From: an uncultured Acinetobacter sp.
Lineage (GTDB): Bacteria > Pseudomonadota > Gammaproteobacteria > Pseudomonadales > Moraxellaceae
Assembly: GCA_964579445.1 (NCBI GenBank)
Contig: CAZOGM010000004.1
Location: 15,079-79,078, forward strand
Direction: 5' to 3'
Length of the DNA: 64,000 nt
Positions 1,835-5,502 of the stretch are shown in pieces; position 1 is the first letter of the stretch; each line of letters starts with the position of its first letter. Under the pieces are notes generated by a model. It was not told the origin of the DNA and searched no databases. It saw only the letters and a list, made by a program, of their open reading frames with translations. Position numbers and translations under genes: made by a program.

Positions 1835-3148
1835 GTGAAATTATTTTCAACCAATACCCATCACGTCCCTGCTGACTTAAGCAGCATTATGGCCGCACAG
1901 CATGAAGTTGCACCTGAGCTAGGCGGTATGACCCAAACACAAATAGATAAAATTTGGCAGAGTGTCGAAAGCTTATACAGGACTGGAAATCATCCCATGA
2001 TCAGTATGTGTATACGGCGTCATGGTCAAATCGTGCTGAATCGAAGTTTGGGATATAGCCGAGTCGCTGCTCAGCATAACAAAAATCAGAAAATTCAAGA
2101 TCAGCCACATGTGATTGCGACACCTGATACGCCAGTTTGTTTATTTTCCGCATCAAAAATCGTGAATGCCATGTTGGTTCATTTGCTCAATGAACAAGGT
2201 AAAATCAACTTACTTGATCCTGTCAGTCACTATATTCCTGAATTTGCCACAAATGGCAAAAGTCGTGCCACGATCTTTCATTTATTGTCACATCGGGGTG
2301 GCATTCCAAAAATTGAAACTGAAGTCACGCCTGAGCTGTTATTCGATCGTGAACAAATTTTACAGCATCTTTATGCAGCAAAACCAATCAGTCGTGCAGG
2401 CTCACAACTGTCTTATCATGCGGTCACGGCAGGTTATATCTTAGGTGAATTGGTTGAACGTGTGACAGGGCAAGATATGCGTGTTTTTTTGCATGAGCAT
2501 ATTGAAAAACCTATGGGCATGCCCTTTTTTAATTATGGCTTAAAAGCTGAATTGCGTGATCAAGTAGCATTAAACTATCCAACAGGAATGCATCCTAAAC
2601 TGGGTACAGATCTTTATTTAAATCGAGTTTTGGGTGGTGGCTTACAATTGGCCGTGGATGTCACCAATGACTCCAGGTTTATGGATACTGTCTGCCCTGC
2701 TGGCAATATCTATACCTCTGCAGAACAAGCCAATCGTTTTTTTGAAATGCTGCTCAATGGTGGTAGCTATCAAGGTAAAAAGATTTTAAGCCCAGAAACA
2801 GTGTTCCGCGCAACGCTTCCAACCTCCAATGTCACCATTGACCGCAATCTCCTTGCGCCAATGCGTTATGCACTCGGTCCAATGTTAGGAAGCAATCCCG
2901 TTGGAATTTTTGGACCCAATACAGGTCAAGCTTTTGGTCATTTGGGTTTTTCCAATATTTTGTGCTGGGCTGACCCGGAGCGAGATATCAGTATATCGTT
3001 TTTAAACACTGGAAAATCTGTAGTGGGTACGCACTTGCCTGCGCTTGCCCATGTGCTGTATCAAATATCAAAGCAATGTCCAAAAATTTCGAAAGAAAAC
3101 AGACGCTCTCTTTTTGGTTCAGATCAGATGGAATCCAATATTGTTTAG
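1835..3148 (+). CDS. Serine hydrolase, beta-lactamase/family VIII esterase superfamily (cytoplasmic, mycobacterial LipL/LipD-like)
   Basis: SxxK motif (FSASK), LLSHRGG, YHAVT in place of YxN, FGHLGF; no signal peptide. Confidence 0.85.
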   Translation: MKLFSTNTHHVPADLSSIMAAQHEVAPELGGMTQTQIDKIWQSVESLYRTGNHPMISMCIRRHGQIVLNRSLGYSRVAAQHNKNQKIQDQPHVIATPDTPVCLFSASKIVNAMLVHLLNEQGKINLLDPVSHYIPEFATNGKSRATIFHLLSHRGGIPKIETEVTPELLFDREQILQHLYAAKPISRAGSQLSYHAVTAGYILGELVERVTGQDMRVFLHEHIEKPMGMPFFNYGLKAELRDQVALNYPTGMHPKLGTDLYLNRVLGGGLQLAVDVTNDSRFMDTVCPAGNIYTSAEQANRFFEMLLNGGSYQGKKILSPETVFRATLPTSNVTIDRNLLAPMRYALGPMLGSNPVGIFGPNTGQAFGHLGFSNILCWADPERDISISFLNTGKSVVGTHLPALAHVLYQISKQCPKISKENRRSLFGSDQMESNIV

Positions 3149-3230: not shown

Positions 3231-3385
3231 TAAGAAAAGCCCCTAAGTAAACTTAGGGGCTTTTCTGCGCTGTAGATTCTTATATTTTAATTATGATTAT
3301 ATTATTTATATTTTTATTCTAAGTGATTCTTTCACTTTTATTGTGTAGACGTTCCATGTTCTCAAGAGTTTCCATTCCTTATGAG
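3231..3385 (-). ncRNA. Candidate sRNA 1 (Csr/Rsm- and/or Hfq/Crc-titrating type)
   Basis: It has its own promoter (TTGCGC-N16-CATAAT with extended TG) and an upstream GacA-type box. The transcript starts AUAAGGAAUGGAAAC...ACAUGGAAC (3 GGA motifs), then runs through a ~65-nt A-rich tract to the terminator at 3233-3266. No ORF is present. Confidence 0.6.
3233..3266. terminator. Bidirectional intrinsic terminator
   Basis: Perfect 16-bp inverted repeat AGAAAAGCCCCTAAGT-AA-ACTTAGGGGCTTTTCT, usable by the hydrolase (+) and the candidate sRNA (-). Confidence 0.9.
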
Positions 3386-3389
3386 ATCT

Positions 3390-3417
3390 ATTATGACAGA
3401 ATAAAAATGATGCGCAA
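3390..3417 (-). promoter_or_regulatory. sigma70 promoter of candidate sRNA 1
   Basis: Minus strand reads TTGCGC (3417-3412), N16, CATAAT (3395-3390), preceded by TG (TGTCATAAT). Confidence 0.6.
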
Positions 3418-3438
3418 GTCACACTTTTCGTATCTTTG

Positions 3439-3456
3439 TGTAAGTAAATTCGTACA
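3439..3456. promoter_or_regulatory. GacA/UvrY-type upstream activating box
   Basis: TGTAAG-TAAATT-CGTACA, one mismatch to the TGTAAG-N6-CTTACA consensus, centred about 65 bp upstream of the predicted sRNA 1 start. Confidence 0.6.
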
Positions 3457-3494
3457 GCATGTAATCAATGTATTAATTTGATTATTTTTTAGTC

Positions 3495-3640
3495 ATAAAA
3501 AAGCCCTGTAGTCTCTCCCAAAACTACAAGGCTTAGCGGCTGTAAGTTTCCTCTTTTATCTCTTACATCTTGTAAGGTCGCAGTCTCACGACTTTAAGTT
3601 ATTATTATTGTGCGATTTTATTCAACTTTCCATGTTGAAC
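3495..3640 (-). ncRNA. Candidate sRNA 2 (Csr/Rsm- and/or Hfq/Crc-titrating type)
   Basis: Minus strand carries UUCAAC-AUGGAAA-GUUGAA (AUGGA in a hairpin loop), AAUAAUAAUAA, AGAGGA and a terminator (AGCCUUGUAGU...ACUACAGGGCU-UUUUU). A GacA-type box lies upstream and a possible -10 TAAAGT is at 3646-3641. The 5' end is uncertain by about 7 nt. Confidence 0.6.
3497..3533 (-). terminator. Intrinsic terminator of candidate sRNA 2
   Basis: Minus strand reads AGCCTTGTAGT-TTTGGGAGAG-ACTACAGGGCT-TTTTT. Confidence 0.75.
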
Positions 3641-3704
3641 ACTTTATGTATGCAATCATCGCAAAAAAAAACAAGAAGCTCTATGCGCTAATTTCTTGAA
3701 TCTT

Positions 3705-3722
3705 TGTACGCCATTGCTTACA
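3705..3722. promoter_or_regulatory. GacA/UvrY-type upstream activating box
   Basis: TGTACG-CCATTG-CTTACA (reverse complement TGTAAG-CAATGG-CGTACA), with the same single deviation from consensus as the box at 3439-3456. Confidence 0.6.
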
Positions 3723-3738
3723 AAATACATTAACATTT

Positions 3739-5502
3739 TTAAATGTTTGATAAAACTATCTTATTCATTTTATTGACCAAACCGCTGCATCTTGTAGTTT
3801 CTATGGTCAATGCCTGTCGTAATGCATTTGGACTAACCAGCAGGCTGACCACTGATTTTGCACGGGTTATTGCGGTATAAATCAGCTCTTGGCTTAAGAG
3901 TTTGGTTGCAGAGTCATCTAGAACCACAGCAGTATGCATAAATTCAGAACCTTGAGACTTATGAATGGTCAAGGCAAAAGCAGTTTGTATTGATTTCGGC
4001 AATCGCGTTGCAGGTATCCATTTGTCTAAACTTGGAAAATAAACTTCGAACAGATCCGTTTGAGTTCTGTGCTTAAAACACAACCCAATATCGCCATTCG
4101 AGATCCCCAACTGATAATCGTTATAGCTCATCATTACGGGACGTCCTATATACCAGTCGCCCTGTTTTACAATGCGAGGCATTAGTCTGAGGCAGGCCTT
4201 TTGCATTTCATCATTTAAACGATCTAGACCCAATTCACCATAGCGAATCGCGGTTAAAATGCGGTAACGATCAAAAGCTTCAATAACCTTCAGCACATCC
4301 TCTTGAGCATAACCATTGCTCATATACCGCTCTAGCGCATGGAAGTAATCTTGATAGCCTGAACTCAGTTTTTCATAATATTGACTTAAGGCAACTGCGC
4401 TGATTTGATCTGGGATGTATTCAAGTTGCACCACATCATTCATTCCTTGTTTTAAAGCAATAGCCTGAAGCTCACCTGCTGTCACAATTTCATGTTCAAA
4501 TGCTTGGAGTATCTGTGCAGAATCAATTTTATGGTTTTGTATAAACTGAGCGGTCTGACCAATGCGTGCCCCTTCCTTAAAACGGCGCGAGGTGATCAGA
4601 TTGATTCGATTTTCTGCCAGTGCCTTAACGTGTTGTAAGTCTGCCAATACAGAGCCGACATCGACAGATGCCAACTGATTGGCATCGCCCAATAAAATCA
4701 GTCGACAATGATCGGGTACAGCTTCAAAGAGCAACGTTGCTAAATTCAGATCGAGCATCGAGGCTTCATCAATCACGATCACATCATAAGGCAAGGGCTG
4801 TTTTAGATTAAATCTAGCTTTAAACTGCGTACCTAGCCCCAAAAGTCGATGCAAAGTGAACGTATCTTGTTGTTTTAAGCGCGCGGAGACCAAACCTAAA
4901 GCATTTAGCTTTTCATCTGCAAATGAGCTTTGCATCGCTTCTTTCATGCGCTGCGCAGCTTTACCCGTTGGGGCTGCCATCGCAATACGAATATCCGGCA
5001 TGCTTTGACTTAATACTGCAATAATTCGCGCTAAGGTATAGGTTTTACCCGTGCCTGGACCACCTGTAATAATATTTAAAGCATTTTTAGCGACCATGTT
5101 CAGGGCACTTTTTTGATGAACATCTTCAAGTAAGTGCTCGAAAGACTGGACATCTACAGTGTCAATGTTTTGCTGTGTCAGGCGCTGAATTTGAAGGGCC
5201 AGACGCTGCTCTAACGTCCAGTAGCGATACAAATAAAGATACTGATCATCAAACACAAAAGGCGCAACTGTTTGATTGCTGGCTTGCTCATCCGAAATTA
5301 TCAAATGATGCAACTGTTCAAGGCTCTGTTCAGGTTTTTCTATACAACTGTCGCCTTGCGTACTGGCAAGCAAAATTTGCTCAATTAAATTAATGGATTG
5401 TTCATTTATTTTTGTATCATTTGAAGTCTGTTTTAGAATGAATTCAGCCCAAGTCCTGACCCACTGTGGCGCTTGACTCTCACGTTGCTGTTTATTTTCC
5501 AC
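3739..5502 (-). CDS. recD: Exodeoxyribonuclease V alpha subunit RecD
   Basis: ITGGPGTGKT Walker A, AAPTGKAAQR, TLHRLLG, IDEASM, LGDANQL, FALTIHKSQGSEF and YTAITRA; downstream of recB. Confidence 0.96.
   Translation of the reverse strand: MENKQQRESQAPQWVRTWAEFILKQTSNDTKINEQSINLIEQILLASTQGDSCIEKPEQSLEQLHHLIISDEQASNQTVAPFVFDDQYLYLYRYWTLEQRLALQIQRLTQQNIDTVDVQSFEHLLEDVHQKSALNMVAKNALNIITGGPGTGKTYTLARIIAVLSQSMPDIRIAMAAPTGKAAQRMKEAMQSSFADEKLNALGLVSARLKQQDTFTLHRLLGLGTQFKARFNLKQPLPYDVIVIDEASMLDLNLATLLFEAVPDHCRLILLGDANQLASVDVGSVLADLQHVKALAENRINLITSRRFKEGARIGQTAQFIQNHKIDSAQILQAFEHEIVTAGELQAIALKQGMNDVVQLEYIPDQISAVALSQYYEKLSSGYQDYFHALERYMSNGYAQEDVLKVIEAFDRYRILTAIRYGELGLDRLNDEMQKACLRLMPRIVKQGDWYIGRPVMMSYNDYQLGISNGDIGLCFKHRTQTDLFEVYFPSLDKWIPATRLPKSIQTAFALTIHKSQGSEFMHTAVVLDDSATKLLSQELIYTAITRAKSVVSLLVSPNALRQALTIETTRCSGLVNKMNKIVLSNI

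What the first reader, a model, noticed from the sequence alone, without database searches (positions are those of the whole stretch)
3231..3722. Tandem pair of GacA-box-driven sRNA genes hidden between the serine hydrolase and recD
The 590-bp intergenic region contains two complete minus-strand non-coding units, each built as palindromic box, promoter, GGA-containing and A-rich body, then intrinsic terminator. Both boxes read TGTAAG-N6-CGTACA (3439-3456; 3705-3722 reversed), with the same single deviation from the Pseudomonas GacA box TGTAAG-N6-CTTACA that drives rsmY/rsmZ (established). Two 18-bp near-palindromes sharing that deviation are unlikely by chance. This suggests a duplicated GacS/GacA-Csr/Rsm output locus (inference). 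Rsm-type RNAs have been proposed in Acinetobacter, so these may already be catalogued.
Basis: partly seen in the sequence, partly recalled or inferred. Interest (0 to 1): 0.65.

Follow-up and report, generated by a model that had tools for sequence, protein, structure and literature searches.

The report
Known Acinetobacter sRNA pair behind GacA boxes
The spacer after recD holds two real small-RNA genes, the counterparts of the already catalogued, Hfq-bound Acinetobacter baumannii RNAs sRNA100 and sRNA99; the possibly new point is that both sit behind a conserved GacA-type activator site.

Summary
Window 3231-3722 holds two minus-strand units, each with an 18-bp GacA-type palindrome, an extended -10 promoter, a ~150-nt non-coding body and an intrinsic terminator.

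They are not a duplication. They share no sequence beyond the box, and each is an old family of its own.

By synteny (rpsO, EstA-type hydrolase, RNA, RNA, recD) and by the published Northern-probe sequences, unit A (~3648-3497) is the ortholog of A. baumannii sRNA100/ABUWs077. Unit B (~3382-3231) is the ortholog of sRNA99/ABUWs076. Both are Northern-validated, highly expressed and Hfq-associated in the literature, so the genes are already catalogued.

GacA control is strongly supported by comparison:
- The genome has only four such palindromes, all 54-56 bp upstream of the -10 of a small-RNA gene. The other two drive classic GGA-rich Csr/Rsm RNAs.
- 98 of 109 Acinetobacter species keep box A and 77 keep a second box.
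- Two other Moraxellaceae genera have a boxed RNA after recD.

No paper I could read reports this GacA link. Neither RNA is a typical CsrA sponge: each has three GGAs, which is not more than composition predicts. Unit A shows conserved GGAs in hairpin loops. Unit B is an unstructured, A-rich, CrcZ-like RNA.

The parts
3705..3722 (-). Box A: GacA-type palindrome TGTAAGCAATGGCGTACA, centre about -65 from the predicted start of unit A
   Evidence: Conserved as TGTA[A/C/G]G-N6-CTTACA in 98 of 109 species loci. In another genus it reads TGTGAG-N6-CTCACA, changed symmetrically in both halves.
3655..3663 (-). Unit A promoter: extended -10, TGcGATGAT. Box centre to -10 centre is 56 bp.
   Evidence: TTTTTGAGAWGAT is conserved across the genus, and the same TGcGATGAT is found in outgroup genera.
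3497..3648 (-). Unit A RNA (~150 nt), ortholog of A. baumannii sRNA100/ABUWs077. The start is predicted, not measured.
   Evidence: Synteny. The ABUWs077 Northern probe matches the A. nosocomialis homolog 24/25. 92-93% identity to ACB-complex homologs over 125 nt. Scores 168 bits with model R1. Fold z = -4.0.
3619..3641 (-). Unit A 5' hairpin with A-N-GGA-A in its loop (GGA at 3631-3629)
   Evidence: All six consensus stem pairs show compensatory double changes across 71 species. GGA is present in 70/71.
3549..3551 (-). Unit A second GGA (AGAGGAAAC), lying between UGUAAG and CUUACA, which can pair in alternative ways
   Evidence: GGA present in 64/71.
3497..3543 (-). Unit A genus-invariant 3' end: ACAGCCGCUAAGCC, then a 15-bp terminator stem with a GGGA loop (3519-3516) and a U-run
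   Evidence: Invariant in 71/71. A 28-mer from it is exact in more than 119 Acinetobacter species genomes.
3439..3456 (-). Box B: reads TGTACGAATTTACTTACA in the direction of transcription
   Evidence: A second box lies within 450 nt of unit A in 77 of 109 species; consensus TGTACG-N6-CTTACA.
3390..3398 (-). Unit B promoter: extended -10, TGtCATAAT. Box centre to -10 centre is 55 bp.
   Evidence: Genus consensus TGnCAnAAT.
3231..3382 (-). Unit B RNA (~150 nt), ortholog of A. baumannii sRNA99/ABUWs076. The start is predicted by homology.
   Evidence: Synteny. Shared 5' CAUAAGGAA and pre-terminator CUACAGCGC; the latter is part of the ABUWs076 probe target. The published 149-nt length projects onto the predicted start in A. 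nosocomialis.
3353..3378 (-). Unit B single-stranded 5' segment with three GGAs (3378-3376, 3373-3371, 3355-3353)
   Evidence: The first AAGGA is conserved in the genus consensus.
3276..3344 (-). Unit B A-rich, largely unstructured body (ARN/AAN-type tract)
   Evidence: open in both the MFE and centroid folds. Across 67 species the body averages 52% A, and runs of 4 or more ARN triplets occur in 56. Intorcia 2025 notes AAN motifs in sRNA99.
3233..3275 (-). Unit B conserved CUACAGCGC motif (3275-3267) plus an intrinsic terminator. The same hairpin serves as the plus-strand terminator of the hydrolase gene.
3739..5502 (-). recD, the conserved upstream neighbour
   Evidence: TIGR01447, 405.7 bits. 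recD lies directly upstream of unit A in all 28 genus loci with enough flank and in outgroup genera.
1835..3148 (+). EstA/LipE-like serine hydrolase, the convergent downstream neighbour
   Evidence: Corresponds to ABUW_RS17125 in AB5075.

Best explanation
Two separate, anciently linked small-RNA genes lie downstream of recD: the orthologs of A. baumannii sRNA100 (unit A) and sRNA99 (unit B). Inferred: phosphorylated GacA binds as a dimer to each 18-bp palindrome centred about 65 bp upstream of the start. It activates a sigma-70 promoter with a weak -35 and a TGn-extended -10, giving ~150-nt transcripts that end at intrinsic terminators. Unit A is a structured RNA that presents conserved GGAs in the loops of its 5' hairpin and its terminator. 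It looks like a GGA-reduced descendant of an Rsm-type RNA that can hold roughly one CsrA dimer and, as published for A. baumannii, also works with Hfq. Unit B is a mostly unstructured, A-rich RNA that chiefly occupies Hfq (CrcZ-like) and keeps a few 5' GGA sites. Together with the genome's classic GGA-rich Csr RNAs, they would form the direct output of GacS/GacA and connect that system to both CsrA and Hfq. Shown here: gene anatomy, orthology, and conservation of box, promoter and structure. Taken from the literature: expression and Hfq association in A. baumannii. Inferred only: GacA dependence, CsrA binding and Hfq titration.
For: Anatomy.
Orthology: the gene order matches AB5075 (rpsO, EstA hydrolase, sRNA99, sRNA100), and the Northern-probe sequences match.
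GacA site:
- Only 4 palindromes occur in the genome, against 0 controls, and all four precede sRNA-like units.
- In A. nosocomialis 8 of 9 do, including sRNA97/CsrB.
- Box-to--10 spacing is 54-56 bp in all 7 units measured.
- Box A is kept in 98 of 109 species and a second box in 77 of 109.
- Another genus has a symmetric double change, TGTGAG...CTCACA.
- A GacA/UvrY-family regulator and CsrA are present.
RNA features:
- The unit A hairpin covaries, and its GGAs are present in 70/71, 64/71 and 71/71 sequences.
- Outgroup homologs carry four loop GGAs.
- Unit B is A-rich and unstructured.
Literature: both RNAs are Northern-validated, very abundant and hubs in Hfq RIL-seq; sRNA99 is described as CrcZ-like.
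Against:
- No experiment that I could read shows GacA dependence of sRNA99 or sRNA100.
- The GacA candidate scores 266 bits, just under the 280-bit curated cut-off.
- GGA counts in A and B are not above composition (P = 0.51 and 0.19), so CsrA binding is unproven.
- Some unit B homologs have 0-1 GGA.
- Singh et al. 2025, which named CsrB, CsrC and CsrD, could not be read, so overlap with their RNAs is excluded only indirectly.
Confidence: 0.72

Rival explanations
1. Both RNAs are ordinary CsrA-titrating Csr/Rsm sponges, that is, a duplicated rsmY/rsmZ-like locus, and CsrA is their main partner.
For: GacA-type boxes lie at the same spacing as the classic Csr RNAs. Unit A has GGAs in the loops of its 5' hairpin and terminator, as Rsm RNAs do. 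Outgroup and deep-branching homologs have four loop GGAs. CsrA is present.
Against: No A-B similarity, so not a duplication. There are three GGAs each, about 2 per 100 nt against 3.7-4.9 in units C, D and CsrB, and no enrichment over composition. Some unit B homologs have 0-1 GGA. The literature places both on Hfq, with sRNA99 behaving like CrcZ, and gives the csrB alias only to sRNA97.
Confidence: 0.15
2. The palindromes are bound by a regulator other than GacA (another NarL/LuxR-type dimer), or they act as something other than an activator site.
For: No direct binding data. The GacA candidate is just under the curated family cut-off. BfmR was proposed as the activator of another Acinetobacter sRNA, Arp. 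One A. nosocomialis box (L154) has no obvious sRNA beside it.
Against: The sequence matches the GacA/UvrY consensus, including the E. coli-like TGTGAG variant in another genus. The same box precedes every classic GGA-rich Csr RNA examined, which is the hallmark of Gac regulons. The candidate regulator scores over 100 bits higher for UvrY/SirA/GacA than for any other family.
Confidence: 0.1
3. Unit A is mainly a recD 3'-UTR product made by read-through and processing, not an independently transcribed gene, and the box is incidental.
For: The recD stop codon is only 17 nt from the box and no terminator lies between them. RIL-seq fragment ranges span the sRNA100-sRNA99 spacer, suggesting some read-through at this locus.
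Against: The box and extended -10 are conserved at fixed spacing. The RNA is far more abundant than expected for a recD message: about 4,700 TPM, while recD does not appear in the stored part of a table that runs down to about 28 TPM. Weiss 2016 reports a discrete Northern band of the expected size.
Confidence: 0.03

Closest known systems
A. baumannii sRNA100 (= ABUWs077 / art71; AB5075 3,570,861-3,570,996, minus strand)
   Same: Same position, directly after recD and upstream of sRNA99. The 3' half is near-identical. The probe target GATGTAGGTGAATAAAGAGGAAACT matches the A. nosocomialis homolog 24/25. Size 136-154 nt. Hfq RIL-seq partner of sRNA5 and several mRNAs.
   Different: The window's copy is from another Acinetobacter species. 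Its box has CGTACA rather than CTTACA in the proximal half. No paper I could read mentions a GacA site or the GGA-loop hairpin.
A. baumannii sRNA99 (= ABUWs076 / art70; AB5075 3,570,401-3,570,549, minus strand)
   Same: Same position between sRNA100 and the EstA hydrolase. Same promoter consensus, 5' CAUAAGGAA, CUACAGCGC before the terminator, about 150 nt and about 50% A. Published as the most prevalent sRNA in Hfq RIL-seq chimeras and as CrcZ-like.
   Different: The middle of the RNA is too diverged for BLAST. Weiss 2016 called it confined to A. baumannii, whereas the family defined by position, promoter and ends is present in 77 of 109 species. In the window, the gap between the unit A terminator and box B is about 40 nt, against 140-220 nt elsewhere.
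Pseudomonas rsmX/rsmY/rsmZ and Acinetobacter CsrB (sRNA97) with the GacA upstream activating sequence
   Same: An 18-bp TGTAAG-N6-CTTACA palindrome upstream of the -35 region, a ~120-170-nt terminator-ended RNA, and a GGA in the terminator loop (unit A). The same box and spacing are found at the genome's classic units C and D and at A. nosocomialis CsrB.
   Different: Only three GGAs, not enriched. No Rfam match, although the classic Acinetobacter units also fail Rfam. The documented partner is Hfq.
Pseudomonas CrcZ (Hfq/Crc-titrating sRNA)
   Same: Unit B/sRNA99 is an abundant, A-rich, largely single-stranded RNA found mainly as RNA1 in Hfq chimeras.
   Different: CrcZ is driven by CbrB and sigma-54. 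Here the promoter is sigma-70-type with a GacA box. CrcZ is longer (about 400 nt, from my own knowledge), and there is no sequence similarity.

Membership tests
GacA/UvrY-activated sRNA promoters | 18-bp palindrome matching TGTAAG-N6-CTTACA upstream of the promoter | tested here: met
   Both boxes match at 11 of 12 specified positions. Four sites in the genome against 0 controls.
GacA/UvrY-activated sRNA promoters | Box at a fixed position upstream of the -35 region, shared with bona fide Csr/Rsm genes of the same genome | tested here: met
   Box centre to -10 centre is 54-56 bp in units A, B, C and D and in A. nosocomialis A, B and CsrB. Transcription starts are predicted, not measured.
GacA/UvrY-activated sRNA promoters | Box conserved in orthologous promoters while the spacer and flanks vary | tested here: met
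   98 of 109 species for box A and 77 of 109 for a second box. Symmetric TGTGAG...CTCACA variant in another genus.
GacA/UvrY-activated sRNA promoters | A GacA/UvrY ortholog encoded in the genome | tested here: inconclusive
   One 213-aa regulator matches NF007018 over its full length at 266 bits (cut-off 280). The next family scores 160 bits and the next genomic hit 79 bits.
GacA/UvrY-activated sRNA promoters | Expression depends on GacS/GacA, and GacA binds the box | not testable with these tools
No held paper reports it.
Csr/Rsm CsrA-titrating sRNAs | Many GGA motifs (typically 5 or more), enriched over composition | tested here: not met
   Three each; P = 0.51 for A and 0.19 for B. About 2 per 100 nt against 3.7-4.9 in units C, D and CsrB.
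Csr/Rsm CsrA-titrating sRNAs | GGAs presented in hairpin loops, including the terminator loop | tested here: met
   Met for unit A only: a covarying 5' hairpin loop and an invariant GGGA terminator loop. For unit B the GGAs are single-stranded and none is in the terminator loop.
Csr/Rsm CsrA-titrating sRNAs | CsrA encoded in the genome | tested here: met
   PF02599, 91.8 bits, at G000:C38:16236-16391.
Csr/Rsm CsrA-titrating sRNAs | Match to a curated Csr/Rsm covariance model | tested here: inconclusive
   No hit for A or B. The classic Acinetobacter units also reach only 19-21 bits against RsmY, whose gathering score is 57.
Csr/Rsm CsrA-titrating sRNAs | Binds and antagonises CsrA | not testable with these tools
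   No data could be read. Singh et al. 2025 is not held.
sRNA100 / ABUWs077 family | Sequence and structure homology plus a position directly after recD | tested here: met
   (168 bits with R1).
sRNA99 / ABUWs076 family | Position between sRNA100 and the hydrolase, with shared promoter, 5' end, pre-terminator motif, size and composition | tested here: met
   The middle of the RNA cannot be aligned by BLAST.
CrcZ-type Hfq-titrating sRNAs | Repeated A-rich (ARN/AAN) motifs in single-stranded RNA | tested here: met
   Unit B: 46% A over the RNA, a ~55-nt open tract, and genus-wide runs of 4 or more ARN triplets in 56 of 67 species.
CrcZ-type Hfq-titrating sRNAs | CbrB/sigma-54-dependent promoter | tested here: not met
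   The promoter is of sigma-70 extended -10 type with a GacA box.

The most novel reading that the evidence does not exclude
In Acinetobacter, a genus outside the family to which a review restricts the CbrAB-CrcZ system, GacS/GacA directly drives both the CsrA sponges and the dominant Hfq-occupying RNA sRNA99, as well as sRNA100. One two-component system would then set the free pools of both global RNA-binding proteins. That would merge what are two separate circuits in Pseudomonas (Gac/Rsm and Cbr/Crc), and it could explain why gacA/gacS mutants lose aromatic-compound (phenylacetate) catabolism.
Probability: 0.3. Interest if true: 0.7.

Novelty: new member of a known kind. Interest (0 to 1): 0.42.

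Why it matters
The RNAs themselves are not new. sRNA99 is the most connected Hfq-bound sRNA in A. baumannii and sRNA100 is also abundant, yet no paper I could read names their transcriptional regulator. A conserved GacA-type site in front of both, at the same spacing as in front of the classic Csr RNAs, gives a concrete and cheap-to-test hypothesis. If it holds, it ties the GacS/GacA virulence and metabolism regulator to the Hfq network as well as to CsrA. The comparison also shows that sRNA99, reported as restricted to A. baumannii, belongs to a fast-evolving genus-wide family. It further shows that the recD-linked RNA predates the genus.

Tried and rejected
- **Rfam**: nothing for A or B. 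This is uninformative, because the classic Acinetobacter Csr RNAs are not recognised either.
- **A and B as paralogs**: rejected; only short chance words are shared.
- **Unit A or B = AB5075 'csrB'**: rejected. csrB is sRNA97/ABUWs074 at 3.4958 Mb, next to an endonuclease gene, and corresponds to the 8-GGA RNA behind a different box.
- **Match to Kulkarni 2006 ADP1 rsmX/Y/Z by flanking genes**: could not be settled without a named ADP1 genome. Their criteria required dense AGGA motifs, which A and B lack.
- **Small-ORF reading of unit B**: rejected by inspection. The AUG directly abuts the AGGA, and the frame is not conserved in A. lwoffii.
- **Co-induction in Hamrock's TPM table**: sRNA97 is about 12-fold and sRNA100 about 5-fold higher in the non-induced samples. 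This is a single contrast, so it is weak.
- **Papers not available**: Singh et al. 2025 is not held, and no Kröger 2018 supplement is held.

Full report
**1. Observation.**
The 590-bp spacer lies between a serine hydrolase gene (1835-3148, +) and recD (3739-5502, -); both identities were confirmed.
- Two 18-bp palindromes are present: TGTAAGTAAATTCGTACA at 3439-3456 (+) and TGTAAGCAATGGCGTACA at 3705-3722 (-).
- With one mismatch allowed, a shuffled window gives 0.26 such sites.
- The whole 2.79-Mb genome has only four TGTAMG-N6-CKTACA sites, against none for the reversed control.
- Each box is followed on the minus strand by a TGn-extended -10 (TGcGATGAT at 3663-3655; TGtCATAAT at 3398-3390), a non-coding body of about 150 nt, and a strong intrinsic terminator (3534-3501; 3266-3233).

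One correction is needed. Read in the direction of transcription, the boxes are in opposite orientation, so the 'same deviation' is in the proximal half of one and the distal half of the other. TGTACG/CGTACA is simply a common Acinetobacter half-site.

**2. What the other boxes in the genome do.**
The other two sites (L031, L034) each precede a ~125-135-nt RNA. These RNAs have five GGAs, mostly as CAGGA, with one in the terminator loop, which is the classic Csr/Rsm design. The distance from box centre to -10 centre is 54-56 bp in all four units, and also in three A. nosocomialis units.

In A. nosocomialis, eight of nine boxes (control 0) precede sRNA genes:
- six GGA-rich ones, including a tandem pair;
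- the homologs of units A and B.

The genome encodes CsrA (91.8 bits). It also encodes one full-length UvrY/SirA/GacA-family regulator (266 bits; cut-off 280; next family 160 bits). So in this genus the box marks sRNA genes almost exclusively, as the Gac regulon does in other gammaproteobacteria. That comparison rests on established knowledge of Pseudomonas.

**3. The two units are not duplicates.**
A and B share nothing beyond the box and short chance words. Each is its own family.

*Unit A:*
- It was found in 35 of 36 other genus genomes searched by BLAST.
- recD lies directly upstream in all 28 loci with enough flank.
- A 28-mer from its 3' end is exact in more than 119 Acinetobacter species genomes.

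*Unit B:* BLAST found it in only a few relatives, but a second box lies 140-220 nt beyond the unit A terminator in most species. It is present in 77 of 109 species loci with enough flank. It is followed by:
- a conserved promoter (TGnCAnAAT);
- a conserved 5' CACAUAAGGAA;
- an A-rich body;
- ACAGCGC(A/C)AAAA and a terminator.

The tandem layout is therefore ancestral to the genus.

**4. Identity with catalogued RNAs.**
In A. baumannii AB5075 the published tables place these features in order:

| Feature | Coordinates | Strand |
|---|---|---|
| rpsO (ABUW_RS17120) | 3,568,597-866 | - |
| EstA-family serine hydrolase (RS17125) | next locus tag; coordinates not in the stored table | not given |
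| sRNA99 | 3,570,401-549 | - |
| sRNA100 | 3,570,861-996 | - |

The window has the same order: rpsO (1313-1582, -), hydrolase (+), unit B, unit A, recD.

Weiss et al. 2016 list the same two RNAs as ABUWs076 (160 nt) and ABUWs077 (154 nt), both confirmed by Northern blot, and give their probe sequences.
- The reverse complement of the ABUWs077 probe matches the A. nosocomialis unit A homolog at 24 of 25 bases.
- The ABUWs076 probe covers the conserved ACUACAGCGCCAA of unit B.
- The ABUWs074 probe matches the 8-GGA RNA behind another box. That RNA is sRNA97, labelled csrB in the RIL-seq tables, at 3.4958 Mb next to an endonuclease gene. It is not this locus.

Hence unit A = sRNA100 and unit B = sRNA99. 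The published 149-nt length of sRNA99 projects exactly onto my predicted start.

**5. What is published about them.**
- Both are among the most abundant transcripts in AB5075, with mean TPM of about 20,350 and 4,680.
- sRNA99 is the most prevalent sRNA in Hfq RIL-seq chimeras. It is mostly RNA1, and the authors liken it to Pseudomonas CrcZ and note AAN motifs.
- sRNA99 is also a 'keystone' in Hi-GRIL-seq.
- sRNA100 has many Hfq-dependent partners, including sRNA5 and several mRNAs.
- None of the held papers on these RNAs mentions GacA. Papers on Acinetobacter GacA do not analyse these sRNAs.
- Singh et al. 2025, which named CsrB, CsrC and CsrD, is not held. The later RIL-seq tables give the csrB alias to sRNA97 and no alias to sRNA99 or sRNA100. 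This suggests, but does not prove, that CsrC and CsrD are other RNAs.
- One 2026 preprint calls 'sRNA99' CsrB in a figure legend and 'sRNA97' in its text, which looks like a slip.

**6. RNA features.**

*Unit A* folds well (z = -4.0). Across 71 species:
- The six consensus pairs of its 5' hairpin all show compensatory double changes. One pair, for example, is GC in 28, AU in 27 and GU in 16 sequences.
- The loop is A-N-GGA-A.
- The last ~60 nt are essentially invariant, including a 15-bp terminator stem with a GGGA loop.
- The three GGAs are kept in 70, 64 and 71 of 71 sequences.

*Unit B* is mostly open: a single-stranded 5' end with three GGAs, a ~55-nt unstructured A/U-rich tract, and a terminator.

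In neither RNA is the GGA count above composition (P = 0.51 and 0.19). The density is about 2 per 100 nt, against 3.7-4.9 in the classic units. Some unit B homologs have 0-1 GGA.

**7. Depth of the lineage.**
A covariance model of unit A finds full-length hits at about 38 bits in two other genera of the family. Those hits:
- also lie directly after recD;
- have a box (TGTGAGCAAATGCTCACA, changed symmetrically in both halves, or TGTAAGCTTAAGCGCACA);
- carry the motif ACAGCCGC-AAGCC; the TGTGAG genus also keeps the same TGcGATGAT -10;
- carry four GGAs, mostly in predicted loops.

Deep-branching Acinetobacter have a unit B with a GGA in its terminator loop. So both RNAs look like descendants of Rsm-type genes that lost GGAs in mainstream Acinetobacter, with unit B also gaining an A-rich tract.

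**8. Mechanism and verdict.**
Most likely, GacA activates both promoters from a site centred near -65.
- Unit A/sRNA100 is a structured RNA able to hold about one CsrA dimer on its loop GGAs, and it works with Hfq.
- Unit B/sRNA99 mainly occupies Hfq.

Gene anatomy, orthology and conservation are shown here. Expression and Hfq association come from the literature on A. baumannii. GacA dependence and CsrA or Hfq titration are inferences.

The finding is a correct reading of a real, already catalogued sRNA pair. Its added value is the conserved GacA-type site, which I could not find reported. An earlier follow-up in this scan, on an A. lwoffii window, reached the same identification. That agrees with this report but is not independent evidence.

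Noticed in passing
G000:C49:3327-3459 (L177 328-460, + strand): A further terminator-ended small unit hit weakly by the unit A model (29.7 bits, E = 2e-4). It has a TATGAT -10, AGAGGAC and AUAGGAAC motifs and a GGGA-containing terminator loop, but no GacA-type box upstream. It may be another sRNA gene with a loosely similar 3' design.
   Followed up: partly
L157/L158 (A. nosocomialis G009:C1:2087041-2087316) and L156 (2084141): Two nearly identical classic 6-GGA Rsm-type genes sit in tandem with boxes 258 bp apart, and a third paralog lies about 2.9 kb away. This is a true recent duplication, in contrast to the recD-linked pair.
   Followed up: partly
window 3541-3576 (minus strand of unit A): The transcribed part of unit A contains CUUACA-N3-UGUAAG and a further CUUACA. 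These are GacA half-site hexamers and are conserved across the genus. They allow alternative hairpins, one of which puts AGAGGA in a loop. Whether they also act as DNA sites is unknown.
   Followed up: partly
window 3457-3496: In this species only about 40 nt separate the unit A terminator from box B, against 140-220 nt in most other species, so the locus is unusually compact.
   Followed up: no
G109:C2:18713-18867 and G109:C22:234604-234754: One Acinetobacter genome carries two copies of the unit A family (163.9 and 119.8 bits with model R1).
   Followed up: no
Literature: PMC5320573 and bioRxiv 10.64898/2026.10.08.755845: Weiss 2016 states that ABUWs076 is confined to A. baumannii, but the family defined by position, promoter and ends is genus-wide. 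The 2026 preprint calls 'sRNA99' CsrB in a figure legend while its text and other datasets assign CsrB to sRNA97.
   Followed up: partly
window 3323-3481 (+): A 52-aa plus-strand ORF listed mechanically overlaps the unit B promoter and 5' end. There is no support for coding.
   Followed up: no
L031 1852 to at least 1950: A run of N (a masked or withheld stretch) lies just downstream of the classic Rsm-type unit C in the window's own genome.
   Followed up: no
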